NCBI GenBank assembly: GCA_000004695.1 | Contig: CM000151.3 | Span: 1,120,001-1,184,000, forward strand | Direction of reading: 5' to 3' | From: Dictyostelium discoideum | Lineage: Eukaryota | DNA: 64,000 bases | Shown: positions 7,272 through 40,899 of the stretch, one piece after another | How the letters are laid out: every line of letters begins with the position of its first letter | Position numbering within the stretch: the first letter of the stretch is position 1 | Translations under genes and position numbers: made by a program | Notes under the pieces: model-generated | Databases searched by the model: none | Seen by the model: only the letters and a program-made list of their open reading frames with translations | What the model was told of the DNA's origin: nothing

Positions 7272-7657
7272 TTTTATTTTTATTTTTTTTTTTTTATATA
7301 TTTATATATTTTGATATATCAGTAACAAAAAACAAATAAAAAATTAGCGAATATCAAATATGTTTAGTTTTTTTTTTTTTTTGGCTTTTTTTTTTTTTTT
7401 GGTTTTTATTTTTTATTTTTTTTCTTAGAGTTGATTTGATTTGTTTTTTTATTTTTTTTTTTTTTTAATGTGGTTTGCCTATTTTTCAAAATTTTTTTTG
7501 AACAAATCAAAATGATTTTCGCAATAATAATAAAAAAATTAAAAAAAAAATCTTTTTTTTTTTTTATTTTTTGTGCACCTCACTCAAAAAACCCAAAAAA
7601 CCCCAACTGATAGTTTAAAGCTGGAAAAAAAAAAAAAAAATTTTATTTTATTTATTT

Positions 7658-8173
7658 TTATAATACAAAAGATTCGGCTTGGTTTTTTGATTGTTCATGA
7701 GTGTATTCATTTATAAAGTCATTAAAATTATCTTGTTCATTTTCTCTATCATATGAATTATTATTATCATTAAAATCATCATATACATCCTCACTACTAA
7801 AGTTATCTTCTATTGGAATTAGATAAGAGCAACCATAACATTGAATTTCTCTTGCTGGACATTGACAAAAGCAAATTTCAACACTTTTTCTATATTGTTT
7901 TTTATTTTCAACTTCACATAAATTATTATATTTATCATCATAATTTTCTTCAGTTTTTTTTTTTTCTTCTTCAATATAATTTTGTTGTAGTTGCTGTTGG
8001 AGATTTATTAATAATTGCATTTGATTTTGATAAAGATATGCATTTATTTGTTTCACTTCTTTTGATAACATATATGAACATTCACCACAATTCTTTTCAA
8101 TAGCTTTCAAAGAACAAAAACAAATAGTTGGGTTTTCACTATTACTATTCATACTACTATTTTGCGTAGTCAT
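7658..8173 (-). CDS. Small Cys-rich acidic protein (171 aa) with a duplicated C-F-C...C-x2-C-S-Y motif (putative zinc-ribbon-like)
   Basis: Single ORF 'MTTQNSSMNSNSENPTICFCSLKAIEKNCGECSYM...SVEICFCQCPAREIQCYGCSYLIP...' with two copies of CFCx(5-7)CxxCSY separated by a Q-rich coiled-coil-like linker. Confidence 0.5.
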   Translation of the reverse strand: MTTQNSSMNSNSENPTICFCSLKAIEKNCGECSYMLSKEVKQINAYLYQNQMQLLINLQQQLQQNYIEEEKKKTEENYDDKYNNLCEVENKKQYRKSVEICFCQCPAREIQCYGCSYLIPIEDNFSSEDVYDDFNDNNNSYDRENEQDNFNDFINEYTHEQSKNQAESFVL

Positions 8174-8207
8174 TATTTATTTTTATTTTTTTTAATTATT
8201 ATTTTAA

Positions 8208-8875: not shown

Positions 8876-8915
8876 ATCATTTTTATTTTTATTTTTATTT
8901 TTATTTTTATTTTTA

Positions 8916-8946
<31 letters not shown>

Positions 8947-8970
8947 TTTATTTTTATTTTATTTTTATTT
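8876..8970. repeat. (TTTTTA)n microsatellite, about 16 units
   Basis: Perfect hexamer tandem array in intergenic DNA. Confidence 0.9.
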
Positions 8971-9143
8971 TTACTTTATTTTTTTTTAAAATAAATGAAA
9001 TAATTAAAATAAAGTAATAATGATAATAAATATATTTTTTTTTTTTAATTACCAGTTCTTAATAATAAATATAATTTAAAAAAAAAAAAAAAAATATATT
9101 AATAAAAATTGATTTAGTTAAATTTACAATTTTAAAATTTTTA

Positions 9144-10032
9144 TTAGAAAATTATCTTTTTTCTATAAAATAAACGTGGGCAACTTGATTTACACTCCAT
9201 TGAAGAAGCACAACCAGACCATATATATTGATTTGTAGAATCTCCGTTAGTTGTAACAATTCCAATAGACAAAAATACATTTATAATATTATAAATACTA
9301 TTTATAACAGTATATTTTTGTTCATAATTTTCTTGATTATTTTTAATGAAAAAATTTTCACAAATTTGTTCTAATGAAAGGAAATCCTAATTTTTTTTTT
9401 TTTAAAAAAAAAAATAATAAATTAGAAAATGTTTAAAAAAAAAAAAAAAAAAAAATCAATGTTTATATAAAAAAAAAAAAATATTTACCGTATTTGATCT
9501 TAGTTTTGGTGATAATAATAATTTTAATATTTGACAAGAAATTGCACAAAGTTGAGTCTTTTTTGGGAAATTAAATTGATCAATTTGAAGTTGAGATTGG
9601 AATTTTTTATTCAAAAAGAAAAACTCTTCACATTTTTGGCAAGCAAATTCATTTTTATCCTCTACAACGAAATTGGAAGCAGAATGAAAAATATTAAAAA
9701 TTAATTTTTTGAATTGATCACTACTGGTGCCATTCCAAAGGTAGTAGTCAGTAGTACCAATTTTTGAAACCACTTGAATACCTTCTAAGATATCAATAAC
9801 ATTTGATATGGTTGCAGTATTACCTTGAATTTCTTTATATAATTTATGAATTTGAAATTGTTTTTCATTACAATTAAAATGCTTTTTTAATAATTTTGTT
9901 ATATGTATTATTTCATTCATATTTGATTCTTTAAATTGATTTGAATTATTTACAAGTTTTGGTTTTTTATAAAATCTTTGTGGTTGTTCTTGTTGGTGTT
10001 GGTTTTGATGTTGGTTTTGGTTTTGGTGTAGG

Positions 10033-10072
<40 letters not shown>

Positions 10073-10760
10073 GAATTTGATGGGGTTCATCATTTTCAAC
10101 AACTCTTTTTTTACTTTTTTCATTAACATCATTATGAAGCAAATGTTTTGGTATTGGGAATGGTTTTTGAATTTCAACTGGTTCACCACAGAGTTCTTTT
10201 ATACGTCTTTGAATTTCATAAGCATAAAAATCTTCTAAATTATGTAAATGTTGGATATCTTCCTCCGGTGTTGGTTCAAACATTAAGTTATCAATTGGTT
10301 TTTGATTATAATAAATTTCAAGTTGGTCAATAATTTTATTTGATATATCATCAAGAGGTGTGGATTTATTTTTATTATATTTATAACAATATGGATTTTT
10401 AATATTTTGTTGTAGTTGTGGTTGTTGTTCTTGTTGTTGTTGTTTTTGTTGTTGTTGTTTTTGTTGTTGGATGTTATTATTATTAGGTTTTTGTTTTTGT
10501 TGTGATTTTTTTTGTTTTTTTTCTTTTTTATTTTCTTTTTTTTCAAGTTTATTTTCAATATCAGTAGGTGGTTGGAAATATTTTTTTTTTAAGCCACCTT
10601 CATTACAATTTTCACTGTTTTGTGAAAAAATAAAAAAACTATTATTTTTACATCCAATTTCAAAATTGGAGTTCTCATAGTCATTGGTGGTATTATTATT
10701 ATTAATATTATTAATATTATTATTATTATTATTATTATTTAAAATAAAAGTAATATCCAT
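9144..10760 (-). CDS. E2F/DP-family winged-helix-like protein; exons 10760..9489 and 9386..9144
   Basis: Exon 1 ORF starts at ATG 10760. It contains 'HITKLLKKHF...TATISNVIDILEGIQVVSKIGTTDYYLWNG', which aligns with the E2F DNA-binding domain 'LTKKFIELL...[29 protein letters not shown]'. A GTAAAT donor follows codon ACG (coordinate 9489). The acceptor is tttttAG at 9388-9387. Exon 2 is an 81-codon open frame ending TAA at 9146-9144. Intron is 102 nt. The protein has poly-N and poly-Q tracts. Confidence 0.5.
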
Positions 10761-10815
10761 TTTATAAAAAAAAATTATTTATTTATATATTTATTTTTAT
10801 ATTAAATTAAACAAA

Positions 10816-10853
<38 letters not shown>

Positions 10854-11276
10854 ATAGCTATAATTTATTAATTTTAATTTTTAATCTATTTTTTTTTTTT
10901 TTATTTATTTTTTTTTTTTATTGTTATAGTGTTTTTATATCTTGAAAAAAAAAAAATAAATAAATAAAAAAAAAAACAAATTAAAATTAAAATAAATAAT
11001 AATAAAAAAAATTGATTTAATGTCGAAATGTCCTTTCATTTTTTAAAAGTTCAAAAAACAAAAAGCATATTACTTTATATTAAATAGGAAATGTAGCGTC
11101 TCTTGATTTAAATCATTTTGTTGTAATTTTATCATTAAAATATTTTAATGATAGAAAATCATTATAATTCAACATAATGATATATAGCATTTTGTATGAC
11201 ACCACTTACAAAAATTAACAAACTTGACCATAACCACCCTTTTTTTAGTTGCGTGGTAAAAATTATTATTTTGTAG

Positions 11277-11311
<35 letters not shown>

Positions 11312-12269: not shown

Positions 12270-15083
12270 TTATTTCTTGACATTTTTCTTTTTATTATTA
12301 TTGTTGTTGTTATTATTATTATTGTTATTATTATAATTATTATTATTTTGATTTTGATTTTGATTTATATTATTACAAATTGCTAATGATTTTTTAAAGA
12401 TTGAGTTTGTATCACTTTCATAATCAAAAACTCTAACCAATTTTGAAATTTTCTCCATTAAAGGAATATTATGTAAAATACTTTGATTTTTACTTTCAAT
12501 ATGAATATTTGTTAAAGATTCAGGAAGTGGTAATTGAATAGTTGGTTCACCACGAATTATTAATGTATGAATTGATGGTGGTAACCATTCTTTTGAAATT
12601 ATTGGTTGAATTAAATCCTCTTCTTCATCATCTTCTTCATTTGAATTATTATTATTATTATTATTACTATTATTATTATAATTATAATTATTACTATTAT
12701 TACTACTATATAAATATTTTTCCTGTTGTTTTTGTTGTAGTTGTTGATTATGATTAATTGCTTCTTGTAAAAATGGATGTTGGTGATTATTTGTATCTTC
12801 TTCTTCTTCTTCATTTTCTTGTTCTTCCTCAAGTTCATGTTCATGGTCATCTTGTATACTACCATCATTATTTTCAATTGAATGATCTAATTGTTGTTCA
12901 TTATCTTGTTGTTGTTGTTGTTGTTGTTTTTGTTGTTTTAATTGTTGTAATCTTTGTTGAGCAACTTGTTGTTGTATTTCTAATTGTTTTTGAGCTTGTA
13001 ATGCTTGTTCATTTTGTAATAATTGTTGTTGAGCGTATTGAGCTTGTTGTTCAACAAATATCTCATCAACAATTTCATAAGAGTCAATGAAAGAACGAAC
13101 AAAAGCACATTCTAAAATTAAGAGTGAAGATGGTAATGAATTTTTTAAGAATGGAGTACAAAATGATTTAACTCTTAATGATTTTAAAGTTGATGGTAAG
13201 GAACCAATTGGGATGACCGATGGTAAACAATCAAATTCGAGATTTGTAATTGATTGTGGTGGGAAACAGTTTGGTCCTAATTGATGATTGTAGGCACCAA
13301 TGAATTGAATTGATTTTAGGTTAACTAAATTCTTAAACATTTCTTGACAAATAGGTTTTTCATAACCTCTAAGTTTTAAATGAGTGATTTTTGAGCCCTT
13401 TTTACCAACCATGAAAACGTCAGGACCATCATGTTGTAAATTATTACCAGTGATAATTAATTTAGTAACATTGGATGGAATGTTAATTTCTTTATCCAAT
13501 ACATTTACAATGTTTAAATGTAACGATTCAACAGAACGTGGGAATGTTTCACGACTACTTGAAGATGAGAATGAATTTAAAATTGCACCAATGGTGGAAT
13601 CATCAGATGATAGACTTGGTAGATAATCACCACCACATCGCAACTTTTTAATATTTGAATTTGTACCCAAAGTTACATTCCTTTCTTGGGATCTAAATGA
13701 GAGCAATAGTGTACTTACATTGGATGGAATGTTGTAACCCAATTTCAATGGGAAAATGTATGAACTATTTTGATGAAATTCTAAATGAGTCAAAGAGTCT
13801 GGGAAAACACTTGGTGGTAATGGTTGATTATATCTTGGACCGAATATCATAGTTTTCAAGGAGGAAGGAATCACACCTATCACCAATGGTTGATTGAAAT
13901 GATTATCCAATGTTAATTTAGTCAATGTTGGGGGTAAACAACCAATAGTTAGAATTGGATTTTGTTGAGTACCCCCCAATTGTAACTCTGTCAACCCGAT
14001 TGGTAACGAGCCTATTGGTATGGGCAAACAAAATCTTTGGCCTAATTTCAAGGATTTTATGCCACTTGGTAATGAACCCACCTCAATCGGACGGAAATAC
14101 TCATTTCCAAAAGCCAACTCTGTCAATGACGATGGTAGTAATCCCGCTTCGAATGGTTGATTGAATTTACCACCAGTGTCCAATGAGGTAATTGCCCCGT
14201 CTATTGGCAGCAAGGGCACTATACCCAACTGGCCCTCCAATCTACCCTGCACTAATAACGGGTCGTTGAATGTGGAATTCAATTTCAAAGTTTTCAAATG
14301 TGATGGAATTGATTTGTACCCCAATTTAGTTGGAGATGAAATTGTAAGATTTGTAATGGAAGTTGGGAGAGAGCCTTCCTTAAATATAATTTTATTCAAG
14401 TGTCCTGACAACTCCAATGTGCTCACACCCACCGGCAATGACTTTATTGTCTTAATTAACTCCTCCTCATGTTGTTCATAACCAATTAAATGAACAGATC
14501 TTAAATAACCATAATATTTATAATCTGATAATGAGACGATACCACGAGAAACTTTACCAAAATAATTATGACCAAGATCTTGATGATAATGATTATGAAC
14601 TCTATGACAATTATGTTGTTGTTGTAAATCTGCACCGTTATCAATACAATTATTTAAATCTATACATTTAAAAACTCTCTTATCATAATGTAAATTATGA
14701 ATTCTAACATAACCTAATATTTTATCACGTACAACTTGATTTCTCCAAAGTTCAAAAAATTTACCACTTGTATATGCTGTCATATCTTTATTAAATTTCT
14801 TTGTTGTTTTTGCAATTAATTTATTTGCTTTCTTTTCACCACCTCTATCTATATCATTATTTATACCATTATTTATATTATTATTTATATTACTATTATT
14901 AATTTCATTATTATTATTGATGTTATTGGAATTATTGTTGTTAGCAATATTATTAGTAGTATTATTATTATTATTATTATTATTGGTATTATTAGTTGTA
15001 TTGTTATTTATATTTGCTTGATTATTTGGACTATTATTTATATTATTAACTACTGGTTGTTGAATCGAAATTGGTTGTTGCAT
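12270..15083 (-). CDS. FNIP-repeat protein (937 aa)
   Basis: Single ORF starting ATG 15083. It has at least 12 tandem ~22-aa repeats of the type 'FNQPL..G.LPSSLTELAFGNEYFRPIEVGSLPSGIKSLKLGQRF', the dictyostelid FNIP repeat. It has N-rich termini and a Q/E-rich coiled region. Confidence 0.8.
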   Translation of the reverse strand: MQQPISIQQPVVNNINNSPNNQANINNNTTNNTNNNNNNNNTTNNIANNNNSNNINNNNEINNSNINNNINNGINNDIDRGGEKKANKLIAKTTKKFNKDMTAYTSGKFFELWRNQVVRDKILGYVRIHNLHYDKRVFKCIDLNNCIDNGADLQQQHNCHRVHNHYHQDLGHNYFGKVSRGIVSLSDYKYYGYLRSVHLIGYEQHEEELIKTIKSLPVGVSTLELSGHLNKIIFKEGSLPTSITNLTISSPTKLGYKSIPSHLKTLKLNSTFNDPLLVQGRLEGQLGIVPLLPIDGAITSLDTGGKFNQPFEAGLLPSSLTELAFGNEYFRPIEVGSLPSGIKSLKLGQRFCLPIPIGSLPIGLTELQLGGTQQNPILTIGCLPPTLTKLTLDNHFNQPLVIGVIPSSLKTMIFGPRYNQPLPPSVFPDSLTHLEFHQNSSYIFPLKLGYNIPSNVSTLLLSFRSQERNVTLGTNSNIKKLRCGGDYLPSLSSDDSTIGAILNSFSSSSSRETFPRSVESLHLNIVNVLDKEINIPSNVTKLIITGNNLQHDGPDVFMVGKKGSKITHLKLRGYEKPICQEMFKNLVNLKSIQFIGAYNHQLGPNCFPPQSITNLEFDCLPSVIPIGSLPSTLKSLRVKSFCTPFLKNSLPSSLLILECAFVRSFIDSYEIVDEIFVEQQAQYAQQQLLQNEQALQAQKQLEIQQQVAQQRLQQLKQQKQQQQQQQDNEQQLDHSIENNDGSIQDDHEHELEEEQENEEEEEDTNNHQHPFLQEAINHNQQLQQKQQEKYLYSSNNSNNYNYNNNSNNNNNNNSNEEDDEEEDLIQPIISKEWLPPSIHTLIIRGEPTIQLPLPESLTNIHIESKNQSILHNIPLMEKISKLVRVFDYESDTNSIFKKSLAICNNINQNQNQNNNNYNNNNNNNNNNNNNKKKNVKK

Positions 15084-15747: not shown

Positions 15748-16914
15748 TTATTTTCCAATATAATTTTTACCAATATAATAAATTTCGGTTGATTCTGAAC
15801 GAGAAGCACCAGGTTTCATTGATTTTACAGAAATGAAATTTGATTCTAATAATTTAAAGAATTTTTTCTCTTCGCCACCTCTTGAAACTTTACAAACAAA
15901 TGTTCCACCCTTTTTTAAAGTTTTAAAAGCGAAAAATAATGCTAACCTTTGTAAATCTATTAAACGACTATGATCAACTTGTTGTAAACCAGAATATGAT
16001 GGAGCCATATCACTAACTACAACATCAACATAACAAGCAGACTTTTGTTTGAACATATTATCTATTGGTTGTTTTTGAAGATCACCATTACCACTACCAT
16101 TACCATTAGCACCACCATTTTCAATTAAATTTTGAATTTTTGAATCTGAATGAATTAATGAATGTTTGTATAATTTTAAATCATTTAAACTTTTAAATTT
16201 TGTTAATTCAAATATTTTATTTTGAGTTTCAGTTAAAGTGAAATCACCATGAATAAAGCAATCTTTATCTAATTGAAAATTTGAAGAAGTGTCAACAGAG
16301 ATTACTAGACCTCTATTGGTTACACGCTCTTGAATGTATTTACTCCAACCACCTGGTGCAGCACCTAAATCGACAACGATTTGACCTGGTTTGAATAACT
16401 GGATTTGTTCATCGATATTGATGATTTTATAAGCAGCTCTTGAGATTAAATCATTCTTTTGTGCCATTGCAACGTATGGGTCAGTCATTTGTCTCTTCAT
16501 CCAATCGTTCTTTACAATATTATTAGCCAAGCCTTTTGGCAAAATACCCGCACCGTTTTGGTGATTCTTTTTAGTGAATATTTGCTTTCTGTTTTTATTA
16601 TTACTAAAATTAATGTTATCCCTATTAACTGATAATCTCTTTCTAACCATCTCATCCTCCTCCATTGTCTTTTCTTTTAAATAAATTGTACTCTTTGGTA
16701 CTTGATGTTCAATACGATGTCTTTTTAAAAATTCAACTGCACTCTCATCTTTATCTTCAAAACCATTCATTATATTAACTATAATTTCATCTTTTTCAAT
16801 ATCATCTTTTTCAATATCATTATTATTATCCTTCTTTTCTTTTATAATTACTTCACTAGAGTATCTTTCCATTTTTGATGCTTTATTATTATTATTATTA
16901 TTAGTAGTAGTAGT

Positions 16915-16948
<34 letters not shown>

Positions 16949-17670
16949 AAGATTTCTTCATTATTCTTTTCTTTTATAATTACTTCACTTGAGTATCTAT
17001 CCATTTTTGATGCTTTTTTATTAGTTTTACCACTATTAAGCATAATTTCTTCATTTTCAAATTCATTATTATTTTTATCATTATTATTATCATTACTAGT
17101 AGTATTTATAACTACTCCACTTGAGGATCTATTAAATTTTGGAGCTTTTTTATTTAAATTATTTTTAGTTATTTCTTCATTTTCAAATTCATTGATGTTA
17201 TTATTATTACTCTTTACAATTACTTCAGTTGAGAATCTATTAAATGTTGGTACTTTTTTAGTATTATTATTATTATTATTATTATTTGGATTATTATTAT
17301 TATTATTATTTTTTGCAATCATTTCTTCAATTCCAAATTCATCTTCATCTTCAATATTATTATTTTTTTTATTCTTTTCTTTTATAATTACTTCACTTGA
17401 GAATCTATCTATTTTTGTATTTACTTTTTCAACTTTAATTGTATTTTTATCTTTATTTTCTTTACCTTCTATAGTTTTTTTTTTTAAAATAAAATGTTCT
17501 AAAATTTCATCGATTGAAAATTCACTAATTGGTGGTTTTTTTGTAAACTGTGTCTTGCTTTTTGATGATGATGCTAATGATCTATAACTACATATAGGTT
17601 TTATTATATTACTAGTATTAAGATGAACTAATCTTTTTAAAACTAATCTATTTGCTCTATTTGCTAACAT
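15748..17670 (-). CDS. Mitochondrial rRNA 2'-O-methyltransferase (FtsJ/RrmJ, MRM2-like) with a long N-terminal extension that contains tandem repeats
   Basis: The C-terminal 230 aa match the FtsJ family: '[37 protein letters not shown]' (SAM motif I), 'DVVVSDMAP' (motif IV) and 'GGTFVCKV...[21 protein letters not shown]'. The N-terminus '[17 protein letters not shown]..' looks like a mitochondrial presequence. The middle has five copies of 'K(A/V)xK(F/M)xR(F/Y)[10 protein letters not shown]' with matching ~120-bp DNA repeats across 16740-17450. Confidence 0.8.
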
Positions 17671-17997: not shown

Positions 17998-21185
<3,188 letters not shown>

Positions 21186-30555: not shown

Positions 30556-38821
<8,266 letters not shown>

Positions 38822-39048: not shown

Positions 39049-40899
39049 TTAATCAATAATTTTTAAAATATTATAAAGATTATGATTTAAACAATAATTT
39101 ATAAATTTAACATTTGAATATTTACAATAAATCTCATTTAGAGAATTTGGAAGTGATAGTATTTTAATTGAAGTTGATTTTGTGTTATTTATATACAATG
39201 TGGTAATAGTTTGTGGAAGTGAATATCTATCTAGAATTAATTCACGTTCTCCTGTGTAGGTTATATGTAATGATTTTAATTTTCTTGGGAAAATTGTGTG
39301 TTTTAGAGTTGAAATATCGAATAAGAAATTAAAAGAAATTTGCTCCACTGTTTCTGGTATTTTGAATAGATTAAATGTTGTGATATAAAAATAATCAAAT
39401 TCAATATTTACAATTGGTGTTGATGATTTTATTGAATATGGTAATCCTTGAAGTTTCTTTTGGTCAGATTTCACAATCACTGATGGTGATAGATTTGTTT
39501 TGAAAATGATTTTAGAGATTGGTAAATTTTGATCAAGATATTGAGGATTTGATTCAGTTATACTAATTACAAAGTTTTCCAAAGTCGATGGTAAATATTT
39601 GGCAATCATACTTCTTTTATATCTTTTAAATAGGTGAAGGGTTTTTAAATTTGGTGGTAATATATTTGGTTTATCAAATGGTTGATCGAATCTAGTACTT
39701 TCTCTAAGATCTAAATAAGTGAGAGATTGAGGTAATAATGATTCTTCATTACCACCTGTTGCTGTTGTTGTTGTTGAATCAATAAAAGGTTGGTCAAAAT
39801 TATGACCAAAAGTAATTGATTCTACATTTGTTGATTTTAAAAATCCAATGGGTCTATTATACATATATCCAAATATTATCTTTTTCAAAGTTGGTGGTAT
39901 TGATGATTCTTTAATTTCACTATTGAAATGGAATGAAAAAGTTATTGATGTTAAAAATGGTGGAAGTGAATCAATATTTTGATTAAATAATCTACCAAAT
40001 CTTAAAGATTTTAGTGATGTTAATTTTGACATATTTGATAACTTTTGATTAAATATACCACCAAAACGAATAGATTCTAAAGAAGATGGTAATTTTCCTA
40101 ATGATTTTAATTTACCATTAAAATATTCACCCAATTCTAAAACTTTTAAATTTTTTAATGATTTATCATCATTTTCTTCATTATCATAATCTTCTTTTTG
40201 TTGTTCTATAGCTCTACCACTACTTTTAAATGATGGTAATAATTTAAAAAATAAAGATGATGATCTTTTTCTTTTTGATTGTTTTGAAAAAATCATTTTA
40301 TTAAATGATGGACCAAGTTTTAAAGTTTCTAAACTTGTTGGTAGTACACCATATTGTATCTTTTGATTATAGGCATGTCCAAATTCTAAAGAAGTTAAAG
40401 ATTTTGGAAGTTGAGATGGCTTTAATGGTTGATTAAAGAAATTACCAAATACTAAAGTCTTTAAATTCACTAAACATTGGAAATCAATTGGCTGATTAAA
40501 CGATTCACCAAGTACAAGTGACGTTAAGGATTCTTTAACTGATAGCATTGGAAGGGTGTAGCATACTATTGGTTGGTCGAATTTCTCGCCAAATTTAATC
40601 GATCGGATAGAAGATACTGATACTGAGGGTAGAGTCTTGTTGTAATCTTTTTCACTCTCTAAAATTTCAATATTTGGTAAAGAGTTTAATAGAGTATTCA
40701 ATAATTGTTGATCTTGTTCTTGATAATCTTTTATTAAAATACTTCTTAAATACTCTTTCATTGGGTATTTAGCTAATGATTCTATGGTAAACTCTTGAGT
40801 ATGATAATTATTATTATATAATCTAACATGATGGAAGATTTGTTTTTTTAAATATTTATTTCTAAAAACTTTAAAAAATAATTTTTCTTGGATTTCCAT
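39049..40899 (-). CDS. FNIP-repeat protein (616 aa)
   Basis: Single ORF 'MEIQEKLFFKVFRNKYLKKQIFHHV...' followed by tandem FNIP repeats ('FGEKFDQPIVCYTLPMLSVKESLTSLVLGESFNQPIDFQCLVNLKTLVFGNFFNQPLKPSQLPKSLTSLEFGHAYNQKI...'). Confidence 0.8.
   Translation of the reverse strand: MEIQEKLFFKVFRNKYLKKQIFHHVRLYNNNYHTQEFTIESLAKYPMKEYLRSILIKDYQEQDQQLLNTLLNSLPNIEILESEKDYNKTLPSVSVSSIRSIKFGEKFDQPIVCYTLPMLSVKESLTSLVLGESFNQPIDFQCLVNLKTLVFGNFFNQPLKPSQLPKSLTSLEFGHAYNQKIQYGVLPTSLETLKLGPSFNKMIFSKQSKRKRSSSLFFKLLPSFKSSGRAIEQQKEDYDNEENDDKSLKNLKVLELGEYFNGKLKSLGKLPSSLESIRFGGIFNQKLSNMSKLTSLKSLRFGRLFNQNIDSLPPFLTSITFSFHFNSEIKESSIPPTLKKIIFGYMYNRPIGFLKSTNVESITFGHNFDQPFIDSTTTTATGGNEESLLPQSLTYLDLRESTRFDQPFDKPNILPPNLKTLHLFKRYKRSMIAKYLPSTLENFVISITESNPQYLDQNLPISKIIFKTNLSPSVIVKSDQKKLQGLPYSIKSSTPIVNIEFDYFYITTFNLFKIPETVEQISFNFLFDISTLKHTIFPRKLKSLHITYTGERELILDRYSLPQTITTLYINNTKSTSIKILSLPNSLNEIYCKYSNVKFINYCLNHNLYNILKIID

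What the first reader, a model, noticed from the sequence alone, without database searches (positions are those of the whole stretch)
9144..10760. E2F-like winged-helix protein in which the DNA-contacting RRxYD motif is replaced
The segment '...TATISNVIDILEGIQVVSKIGTTDYYLWNG' aligns closely with the E2F recognition helix and wing ('[29 protein letters not shown]'). However, the invariant RRxYD that contacts the TTTSSCGC site is A-T-I-S-N here. That suggests an E2F-fold protein that either binds a different sequence or acts as a non-DNA-binding partner or decoy. The gene also has a previously unannotatable second exon (81 codons, Cys-rich tail) after a GTAAAT donor.
Basis: partly seen in the sequence, partly recalled or inferred. 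Interest (0 to 1): 0.6.

Follow-up and report, generated by a model that had tools for sequence, protein, structure and literature searches.

The report
Degenerate two-domain atypical E2F of Dictyostelium
This social-amoeba gene encodes a fast-evolving relative of the "atypical" E2F cell-cycle regulators (E2F7/8/DEL type, two winged-helix domains in one chain) in which the arginine motif that reads the E2F DNA site is replaced in both domains, although the domains are still under purifying selection.

Summary
A two-exon gene on the minus strand (10760..9489 and 9386..9144, with a 102-nt GT-AG intron) encodes a 504-aa protein. It scores above Pfam's E2F_TDP gathering threshold (27.6 bits against 25.7, E 2.4e-6).

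Exon 2 is not just a Cys-rich tail. It encodes most of the second winged helix, which the intron splits.

The tandem region aligns collinearly with plant DEL proteins (hhalign E 3.7e-6; 200 shuffles reach at most 26.5 against 44-46). It aligns best with Polysphondylium pallidum DELb (BLASTP E 1e-9), including a shared linker motif, NIFHS..N...(D/E)..EF.C..C.

Every DEL/E2F7 reference aligned keeps RRxY(D/E) in the first domain and (R/K)RxYD in the second. This protein has ATISN and NSIYN, and the recognition helix plus wing has lost its positive charge.

Orthologues were found only in D. cf. discoideum and D. citrinum. They have the same intron and the same motifs, and dN/dS is about 0.14 in both domains.

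The dictyostelid transcription-factor census (Forbes 2019) already lists two E2F_TDP genes "unique to Ddis", so the gene is probably catalogued. The tandem DEL-type origin and the double motif loss appear undescribed.

Most likely it is a DEL derivative that no longer reads the E2F site. Whether it is a non-binding regulator or has a new DNA specificity is unresolved.

The parts
9144..10760 (-). Whole gene: 2 exons, 504-aa product.
   Evidence: Orthologue models P0003 (488 aa) and P0125 (500 aa) have the same structure.
9489..10760 (-). Exon 1 (424 codons). It holds a low-complexity N-terminus, a conserved block, a poly-Q stretch, winged-helix domain 1, the linker and helix 1 of domain 2.
   Evidence: Read-through into the intron stops after 10 more codons, which gives the 434-aa ORF.
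9387..9488 (-). Intron, 102 nt, GTAAAT...TTAG, phase 0.
   Evidence: The orthologous introns are 100 nt (D. citrinum) and 103 nt (D. cf. discoideum) at the same position. Identity to D. citrinum drops to 0.44-0.48 here.
9144..9386 (-). Exon 2 (80 codons plus stop): helices 2-3 and the wing of domain 2, then a 22-aa tail.
   Evidence: dN/dS is 0.22 against D. citrinum.
10149..10397 (-). Conserved N-terminal block (residues 122-204). It has no family match and its role is unknown.
   Evidence: It is nearly invariant among the three orthologues. dN/dS over residues 117-205 is 0.17, against 0.81 for residues 1-116. Pfam and PDB sequence searches gave no hit.
9729..9926 (-). Winged-helix domain 1 (residues 279-344), E2F_TDP-like.
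   Evidence: On the 103-aa fragment, Pfam matches residues 26-83 to profile positions 8-65, E 0.011 alone. The domain is collinear with DEL DBD1. dN/dS is 0.135.
9801..9815 (-). ATISN (residues 316-320), at the position of RRxYD in domain 1.
   Evidence: Alignments. One D. citrinum assembly has STISN here.
9567..9728 (-). Inter-domain linker (residues 345-398). It contains NIFHSASNFVVEDKNEFACQKCE, with the CxxC at 9630..9641.
   Evidence: It matches the P. pallidum DELb linker NIFHSSRNYITDETEFVCENCKH. dN/dS is 0.14.
9489..9566 (-). Domain 2, N-terminal part (residues 399-424, helix 1), encoded in exon 1.
   Evidence: The Pfam stretch 405-482 spans the splice junction. Alignment.
9213..9386 (-). 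Domain 2, C-terminal part (residues 425-482: helix 2, recognition helix, wing), encoded in exon 2.
   Evidence: On the domain-2 fragment alone, Pfam E2F_TDP scores E 8e-4. A plant DEL HMM hits this exon in the six-frame translation at E 1e-5. dN/dS for domain 2 is 0.148.
9288..9302 (-). NSIYN (residues 453-457), at the position of RRxYD in domain 2.
   Evidence: Alignments. It is invariant in all the orthologues.
9147..9212 (-). C-terminal tail CASSMECKSSCPRLFYRKKIIF (three Cys).
   Evidence: The first 18 residues are identical in the orthologues. P. pallidum DELb has no equivalent tail.

Best explanation
The gene encodes a lineage-restricted, fast-evolving descendant of the DEL/E2F7-8 type of atypical E2F. 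Two E2F/DP winged-helix domains sit in one chain, joined by a conserved linker. By analogy with E2F8 they would pack against each other as an intramolecular E2F-DP-like pair; that step is inferred.

Shown: in the Dictyostelium discoideum species complex both recognition helices have lost the arginine pair of RRxYD (ATISN and NSIYN), and the recognition helix plus wing has lost most of its positive charge. The hydrophobic framework of both domains, the linker and an N-terminal block remain under purifying selection.

Inferred mechanism: the protein keeps the E2F-type fold but can no longer read the TTTSSCGC/GCGC E2F site. It most likely acts through protein contacts as a DNA-binding-deficient regulator (a pseudo-transcription factor). 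The slightly less likely alternative is that it has been retargeted to a different DNA sequence.
For: Family and architecture
- Pfam E2F_TDP is above its gathering score, with two stretches. It is reproduced in all orthologues and precomputed for P0003 and P0125.
- No E2F_CC-MB, DP or other domain hit appears at E<=10.
- hhalign aligns 204 columns collinearly with the tandem DBDs of plant DEL (Prob 87%, E 3.7e-6). The score lies far outside 200 shuffles.
- The best pairwise relative is PpalDELb (phmmer 28.8 bits; BLASTP 44.3 bits, E 1e-9, 192 aa spanning both domains and the linker). Canonical DdisE2F and DdisDP score 6.6 and 9.0 bits.

Motif loss
- In the 7-sequence alignment, all five DEL/E2F7 references keep RRxY(D/E) in DBD1 and (R/K)RxYD in DBD2. 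The two rows from this gene family (this window and D. citrinum) do not.
- Net charge of recognition helix plus wing is -2 and -1 to 0 here, against 0 to +4 (DBD1) and +4 to +8 (DBD2) in the references.
- RRXYD is described as invariant in E2F/DP and responsible for contacting the GCGC core (Medina et al. 2016, PMC4862756).

Constraint
- dN/dS against D. citrinum is 0.135 (domain 1), 0.143 (linker) and 0.148 (domain 2), against 0.81 for the N-terminal 116 residues.
- The ORF is intact, with the same intron, in three further assemblies.
Against: - No confident 3D model was obtained. Both single-sequence AlphaFold runs gave pLDDT of about 38. The fold and the intramolecular pairing therefore rest on sequence homology only.
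- Each domain alone is below Pfam's threshold (15.9 and 19.5 bits).
- Loss of RRxYD shows loss of the canonical contacts, not loss of all DNA binding. Polar T/S/N residues on a recognition helix could read AT-rich DNA, and basic patches (KSKKRV, YKKPKL) lie just upstream of domain 1.
- No expression, localisation or interaction data could be tied to this gene.
- Orthology to PpalDELb rests on 24% identity and one shared linker motif.
Confidence: 0.45

Rival explanations
1. It is an atypical E2F with changed specificity. The two winged helices still bind DNA as a pseudo-dimer, but the new recognition-helix residues (T/S/N) read a different, probably AT-rich, site suited to the 78% A+T genome.
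For: - Both recognition helices are under strong purifying selection although the arginines are gone. NSIYN is invariant and the Tyr of domain 2 is kept.
- Basic stretches flank domain 1.
- The protein keeps the complete two-domain geometry that positions two helices in adjacent major grooves.
Against: - Net charge of the DNA-facing helix plus wing fell to between -2 and 0, against up to +8 in DNA-binding relatives.
- The N-terminal (R/K)xxKSL arm is also lost in domain 1.
- The first motif position varies (A or S) between two D. citrinum assemblies.
- To my knowledge no E2F/DP-fold protein is known to bind DNA without the RR pair.
Confidence: 0.3
2. It is a decaying relic: a DEL gene that lost its function in the D. 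discoideum lineage and is drifting towards a pseudogene.
For: - The family is very divergent and narrowly distributed. An exhaustive phmmer search of 1.84 billion representatives with exon 1 residues 263-424 found only the D. cf. discoideum cluster.
- The N-terminal 116 residues evolve almost neutrally (dN/dS 0.81).
Against: - dN/dS is 0.13-0.15 in both domains and the linker, and 0.17 in the N-terminal block.
- The ORFs are intact and the splice sites conserved in four assemblies.
- Exon boundaries coincide with sharp drops in DNA identity.
Confidence: 0.05
3. It is not an E2F relative at all. It would be a generic winged-helix protein whose weak Pfam hit reflects fold-level or compositional resemblance.
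For: - Each domain alone is sub-threshold in Pfam.
- PDB sequence searches find nothing.
- phmmer against all proteins does not reach canonical E2Fs.
Against: - Two independent tandem hits to the same Pfam family sum above the gathering threshold, and no competing winged-helix family is significant for the whole spliced protein. Scanned alone, the domain-1 fragment gives comparably weak hits to Cac1_C (E 0.0079) and DUF4143 (E 0.018) alongside E2F_TDP (E 0.011).
- The alignment with DEL proteins is collinear over two domains plus linker, with z of about 10 against shuffles.
- E2F-specific strings are kept: NV(I/L)..LEGI, IY.I.NV..S.G, (Y/F).W.G.
- The linker motif shared with PpalDELb lies outside the winged helices.
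Confidence: 0.05
4. It is an inter-molecular decoy. One or both degenerate domains would pair with canonical E2F or DP (the Dictyostelium e2f and tfdp2 products), forming heterodimers with only one functional RRxYD half. That would poison E2F-site binding, as reported for human TFDP3/DP-4 (from my own knowledge, not checked here).
For: - The hydrophobic framework that forms the E2F-DP interface is retained while the DNA contacts are lost.
- Forbes et al. 2019 list e2f, tfdp2 and one of the two Ddis-unique E2F_TDP genes as prespore-specific. It is not shown that the listed gene is this one.
Against: - A tandem arrangement favours intramolecular pairing, as in E2F8.
- No coiled-coil/marked-box dimerisation domain is detectable.
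- There are no interaction data.
Confidence: 0.15

Closest known systems
Dictyostelid DEL-type proteins (PpalDELb, PpalDELa, DfasDEL in Medina et al. [quoted passage not shown] 2019)
   Same: - Two E2F_TDP domains in tandem at the C-terminal end, after a long low-complexity N-terminus.
- A collinear alignment over about 190 residues.
- A shared linker motif with PpalDELb: NIFHS..N...(D/E)..EF.C..C.
   Different: - The group 1/2 proteins keep RRFYE in DBD1 and (K/R)R(I/L/V)YD in DBD2. This protein has ATISN and NSIYN.
- Identity is only about 24%.
- This protein adds a conserved N-terminal block and a Cys-containing tail.
Atypical E2Fs: animal E2F7/E2F8 (structure 4YO2) and plant DEL1-3/E2Fd-f
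   Same: - Duplicated E2F-type winged-helix DNA-binding domains in one chain.
- No detectable DP-dimerisation, marked-box or pocket-protein-binding domains.
- An insertion between helix 2 and the recognition helix in the second domain.
   Different: - E2F7/8/DEL bind the canonical E2F site through RRxYD in both domains and repress E2F targets. Both motifs are replaced here and the DNA-facing surface has lost its positive charge.
- No canonical E2F site lies in this gene's own upstream region: the only TTTSSCGC in the 64-kb window is at 19937.
Canonical Dictyostelium E2F (DDB_G0284129) and DP (tfdp2, DDB_G0276799)
   Same: The same Pfam winged-helix family (PF02319).
   Different: - Canonical E2F and DP each have one DBD, with KRRIYD retained.
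- They score only 6.6 and 9.0 bits against this protein, compared with 28.8 bits for PpalDELb.
- They are conserved throughout Dictyostelia (Forbes 2019). Homologues of this gene were detected only in the D. discoideum complex.
DNA-binding-deficient transcription-factor paralogues that act as inhibitors (human TFDP3/DP-4, Id proteins). Cited from my own knowledge and not tested here.
   Same: A transcription-factor fold is retained while the DNA-contact residues are lost. This is a possible mode of action.
   Different: Those proteins act by heterodimerising with active partners. This protein carries both halves of the dimer in one chain, and no partner is known.

Membership tests
E2F/DP winged-helix family (Pfam PF02319, InterPro IPR003316) | Significant match to the family profile | tested here: met
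   27.6 bits against the gathering score of 25.7, E 2.4e-6, two stretches. All three orthologues match, best E 8.9e-8. Each domain alone is sub-threshold (15.9 and 19.5 bits).
E2F/DP winged-helix family (Pfam PF02319, InterPro IPR003316) | RRxYD DNA-recognition motif in the recognition helix, described as invariant in the family (Medina 2016) | tested here: not met
   ATISN in domain 1 and NSIYN in domain 2. The same holds in the orthologues, with STISN in one D. citrinum assembly.
E2F/DP winged-helix family (Pfam PF02319, InterPro IPR003316) | Winged-helix fold (three helices plus a beta wing) | tested here: inconclusive
   The low-confidence AlphaFold models show H-H-H-E-E for domain 1, but pLDDT is about 38. 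No fold search was possible.
E2F/DP winged-helix family (Pfam PF02319, InterPro IPR003316) | Binding to the TTTSSCGC E2F site | not testable with these tools
   This needs EMSA, SELEX or ChIP.
Atypical E2F (E2F7/E2F8/DEL) | Two tandem E2F-type DBDs in one polypeptide, collinear with family members | tested here: met
   Pfam gives two stretches. hhalign aligns 204 collinear columns with plant DEL, E 3.7e-6, well outside the shuffles. BLASTP against PpalDELb gives E 1e-9 across both domains and the linker.
Atypical E2F (E2F7/E2F8/DEL) | No DP-dimerisation, marked-box or pocket-protein-binding domains | tested here: met
   No Pfam hit other than E2F_TDP is significant in the 504-aa protein at max E 10. 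This is absence of a hit, not proof of absence.
Atypical E2F (E2F7/E2F8/DEL) | Both DBDs carry the RRxYD-type contact motif | tested here: not met
   All five DEL/E2F7 references aligned keep RRxY(D/E) in DBD1 and (R/K)RxYD in DBD2. This protein keeps neither.
Atypical E2F (E2F7/E2F8/DEL) | DP-independent repression of E2F target genes | not testable with these tools
   This needs reporter assays or a knockout transcriptome.
Orthologue of P. pallidum DELb | Best reciprocal similarity, a shared lineage-specific linker motif, and synteny | tested here: inconclusive
   PpalDELb is the best of eight references, and the linker motif is shared only with it. No reciprocal proteome search or synteny test was possible. 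No D. purpureum or D. lacteum intermediate was found.

The most novel reading that the evidence does not exclude
This would be a naturally occurring 'pseudo-E2F': a DEL/E2F7-8 descendant that lost DNA reading in both winged helices but is kept by selection as a protein-level regulator. It might modulate the RblA/E2F/DP axis or prespore gene expression in the D. discoideum lineage. It would also be an exception to the stated invariance of RRxYD across eukaryotic E2F/DP proteins.
Probability: 0.35. Interest if true: 0.55.

Novelty: new variant of a known kind. Interest (0 to 1): 0.4.

Why it matters
The RRxYD motif is described as invariant in the E2F/DP family across eukaryotes and as the element that reads the GCGC core. 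A member that has replaced it in both domains of a tandem pair, yet is held under purifying selection, is a natural separation-of-function variant. It shows which parts of the E2F fold are kept when E2F-site reading is given up.

It also fills a gap in the evolutionary record:
- A cell-cycle survey (Medina 2016) found DEL-type genes in group 1/2 dictyostelids but none in D. discoideum.
- The transcription-factor census (Forbes 2019) lists 'e2f-like genes unique to groups 1 and 2' and '2 genes unique to Ddis' as separate sets.

The linker homology found here suggests these are the same lineage, strongly diverged in group 4.

Dictyostelium has a tractable Rb/E2F system (rblA), so a knockout and a DNA-binding assay are straightforward. 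The scope is narrow, however: one small species complex, with no functional data yet.

Tried and rejected
- Structure prediction failed. The tools refuse the spliced sequence. I then spent both AlphaFold jobs on single sequences: the exon-1 part, and P0003 submitted by mistake without an alignment. Both gave pLDDT of about 38, so no fold search could be run.
- PDB sequence searches with the two-domain region and with the family profile found nothing useful.
- An exhaustive phmmer search of 1.84 billion representatives with exon 1 residues 263-424 found only P0003 and a spurious WD40 protein.
- Word-indexed searches with the protein and with a three-species profile found only D. citrinum and D. 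cf. discoideum. No D. purpureum or other intermediate could be recovered.
- The search seeded with DEL sequences returned only plant DELs in its top 120. An HMM built from them plus one P. pallidum DEL fragment has low diversity and matched mainly the recognition helix and wing. hhalign was more informative.
- I considered an LxCxE Rb-binding motif. 'KELCGE' does not fit the spacing, so I rejected it.
- I looked for a second family member in the window and found none.
- I looked for a canonical E2F site near the gene and found none. The only TTTSSCGC in the window is at 19937.
- I could not determine which dictyBase ID the gene has. DDB_G0272264 and DDB_G0282499 are the candidates, and no paper text mentions either.

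Full report
**1. What is in the sequence**

The window is about 20% G+C with poly-N/poly-Q coding, which is typical of Dictyostelium. On the minus strand an ATG at 10760 opens a 434-codon ORF. After codon 424 (ACG, ending at 9489) comes GTAAAT. After 102 nt comes TTAG, followed by an 80-codon open frame and TAA (9386..9144). Splicing gives a 504-aa protein.

**2. The splice model is sound**

No reads are available, so the evidence is comparative.

- The D. citrinum and D. cf. discoideum loci (L003, L004) have GT-AG introns of 100 and 103 nt at the same codon boundary. The lengths are not multiples of three and the introns contain stops.
- A third assembly's contig ends inside the intron right after GTAAAT.
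- In 50-nt windows, identity to D. citrinum is 0.76-0.96 in the C-terminal part of exon 1 and in exon 2. It drops to 0.44-0.48 in the intron and to 0.3-0.5 immediately after the stop codon.
- Exon 2 has dN/dS 0.22.
- GenBank models P0003 (KAM9979251.1, 488 aa, 92% identical) and P0125 (500 aa) use the same junction.

The exon is therefore real.

**3.

hmmscan of the spliced protein gives Pfam E2F_TDP (PF02319) at E 2.4e-6 and 27.6 bits, above the gathering score of 25.7. There are two stretches, and the better one is residues 405-482, which spans the intron.

- Alone, domain 1 scores 15.9 bits and domain 2 scores 19.5 bits. The call depends on both domains, and hence on the correct gene model.
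- All three orthologues scanned match the family, best E 8.9e-8. The database's precomputed Pfam column also lists PF02319 for P0003 and P0125.

Exon 2 therefore encodes helix 2, the recognition helix and the wing of a second winged-helix domain. Only the last 22 residues (CASSMECKSSCPRLFYRKKIIF) form a Cys-containing tail.

**4. The architecture is that of atypical E2Fs**

I fetched 120 plant DEL (E2Fd/e/f) proteins and compared their N-terminal 270 residues with the family's C-terminal alignment.

- hhalign aligns 204 columns collinearly: domain 1 to DBD1, linker to linker, domain 2 to DBD2 (Prob 87%, E 3.7e-6).
- Two hundred column shuffles of the query give a mean score of 14.5, sd 3.0 and maximum 26.5, against 44-46 for the real alignment. 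The similarity is not compositional.
- No other significant Pfam domain (E2F_CC-MB, DP and so on) appears.

**5. The closest relatives are dictyostelid DELs**

The E2F/DP FASTA of Medina et al. 2016 (PMC4862756, Figure 2 source data 2) contains DfasDEL, PpalDELa and PpalDELb. For D. discoideum and D. purpureum it contains only E2F and DP.

| Reference | phmmer score against this protein (bits) |
|---|---|
| PpalDELb | 28.8 |
| AthaDEL3 | 22.6 |
| Capsaspora E2F7 | 13.0 |
| PpalDELa | 13.0 |
| DdisDP | 9.0 |
| DfasDEL | 6.7 |
| DdisE2F | 6.6 |
| human E2F4 | 3.8 |

BLASTP against PpalDELb gives 44.3 bits and E 1e-9, with 24% identity over 192 residues spanning both domains. The linker, which lies outside the winged helices, shares NIFHSASNFVVEDKNEFACQKCE with PpalDELb's NIFHSSRNYITDETEFVCENCKH.

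This points to common descent from a dictyostelid DEL gene. Strict orthology remains unproven.

**6. The motif**

In the 7-sequence alignment, DBD1 reads RRFYE (PpalDELa, PpalDELb, DfasDEL), RRIYD (AthaDEL3) or RRLYD (Capsaspora E2F7). DBD2 reads KRIYD, KRLYD, RRVYD or RRLYD. This protein and D. citrinum have ATISN and NSIYN.

- The first position of domain 1 is A or S in two D. citrinum assemblies. NSIYN is invariant.
- The (R/K)xxKSL arm that precedes helix 1 is also gone in domain 1 (SNMNEII).
- Net charge of recognition helix plus wing is -2 (domain 1) and -1 to 0 (domain 2). The references have 0 to +4 and +4 to +8.
- Medina et al. state that RRXYD is invariant within E2F/DP and contacts the GCGC core. 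The E2F4-DP2 and E2F8 entries 1CF7 and 4YO2 carry RRIYD, RRVYD and RRLYD.

**7. The gene is functional**

Nei-Gojobori dN/dS against D. citrinum:

| Region | dN/dS |
|---|---|
| Whole gene (dS 0.41) | 0.28 |
| Domain 1 | 0.135 |
| Linker | 0.143 |
| Domain 2 | 0.148 |
| Residues 117-205 (N-terminal block) | 0.17 |
| Residues 1-116 | 0.81 |

The degenerate domains are constrained, so this is not a pseudogene.

**8. Distribution**

- phmmer of exon 1 residues 263-424 against 1.84 billion representatives found only the D. cf. discoideum cluster and a spurious WD40 hit.
- Word-indexed searches found only D. citrinum and D. cf. discoideum.
- At 28.8 bits, PpalDELb itself would fall below a database-wide threshold. 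Absence from D. purpureum is therefore not established.

**9. What is already known**

Forbes et al. 2019 (PMC6873476) catalogued dictyostelid E2F_TDP proteins through IPR003316. They report:

- five such proteins in D. discoideum: e2f, tfdp2, a second tfdp2-related gene, and 'a set of 2 genes unique to Ddis' (DDB_G0282499 and DDB_G0272264);

The window gene is very probably one of the two Ddis-unique genes, but I could not tell which. The E2F_TDP annotation is therefore not new. I found no description of three things: the tandem DEL-type architecture, the link to the group 1/2 genes, and the loss of RRxYD in both domains under purifying selection.

**10. Mechanism**

Shown:
- E2F/DP family homology and the tandem DEL-like arrangement;
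- loss of both arginine pairs and of positive surface charge;
- purifying selection.

Inferred:
- the two domains pack as an intramolecular E2F-DP-like pair, by analogy with E2F8;
- the protein cannot recognise the canonical E2F site.

Open: whether it binds no DNA and works through protein contacts (my preferred reading, about 0.45 including the inter-molecular decoy variant), or reads a new, probably AT-rich, site (about 0.3). A relic gene and a non-E2F winged helix are each at or below about 0.05.

**11. Verdict**

The finding is real. The protein is a new variant of a known kind, a degenerate atypical E2F. It is of moderate interest as a natural exception to RRxYD invariance in a tractable Rb/E2F model organism. 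It is limited by its narrow distribution, the prior cataloguing of the domain and the lack of functional data. Interest 0.4.

Noticed in passing
window 10998-11293 (240-530 nt upstream of the ATG at 10760, read on the minus strand): A non-coding block of about 250-300 nt is 84-98% identical to D. citrinum and about 100% identical to D. cf. discoideum. That is more conserved than the coding exons (dS 0.41), while the rest of the intergenic region falls to 30-60%. Indels of 2 and 4 nt exclude a conserved ORF. It contains a perfect palindrome, TATCATTAAAATATTTTAATGATA. There is no Rfam match at E<=1, and the RNA fold z-score is about -2 on both strands. It may be a promoter or 5'UTR element, or an unknown ncRNA.
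   Followed up: partly
L002 1802-2924 (D. citrinum GCA_054859145.1, contig JBTAPK010000026.1): Gene model P0002 fuses a mitochondrial-type NADH dehydrogenase 75-kDa (nad11-like, Fer2/NADH-G_4Fe-4S) sequence directly to the orthologue of exon 2. The join sits at the intron's 3' end, and exon 1 lies on another contig that ends inside the intron (L001). This looks like an assembly or annotation chimera.
   Followed up: partly
L004 8624-9989 (D. cf. discoideum), compared with L003 and window ~7600-8200: Downstream of the orthologue, D. cf. discoideum carries a DDE_Tnp_4/HTH_Tnp_4 transposase gene. D. citrinum instead has a 164-aa gene followed by a 926-aa gene, and the window has ORFs of 171 aa and 883 aa. 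This is a lineage-specific transposon insertion next to the locus.
   Followed up: no
window 10149-10397 (protein residues 122-204): A conserved N-terminal block (TPLDDISNKIIDQLEIYYNQKPIDNLMFEPTPEEDIQHLHNLEDFYAYEIQRRIKELCGEPVEIQKPFPIP) has dN/dS 0.17 (measured over residues 117-205). It matches nothing in Pfam or PDB and has no counterpart in PpalDELb. It may be a lineage-specific interaction module.
   Followed up: partly
window 9630-9641 and 9147-9212: There is a CxxC in the inter-domain linker (also present in PpalDELb as CENC followed by HHH) and three Cys in the C-terminal tail (C-x6-C-x3-C). All are invariant in the orthologues. Together they could form a zinc site tying the tail to the linker, but this is purely speculative.
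   Followed up: no
window 8890-8990 and 10800-10870: A tandem (AAAAT/AAAATAAAAAT)n-like repeat lies 3' of the gene, and a T-run of about 45 nt lies just upstream of the ATG. These are typical Dictyostelium intergenic low complexity.
   Followed up: no
window 12270-15083 (-), 39049-40899 (-), 15748-17670 (-), 30556-38821 (+): The neighbouring genes are two FNIP-repeat proteins, an FtsJ-like methyltransferase and two adjacent PHD-finger ORFs (954 and 1772 aa, possibly one gene). The FNIP gene upstream of the E2F-like gene is syntenic in D. citrinum, where the upstream gene model also hits FNIP. In D. cf. discoideum a gene of similar size sits in the same position but has no Pfam hit on record. 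Nothing links any of these functionally to the finding.
   Followed up: partly
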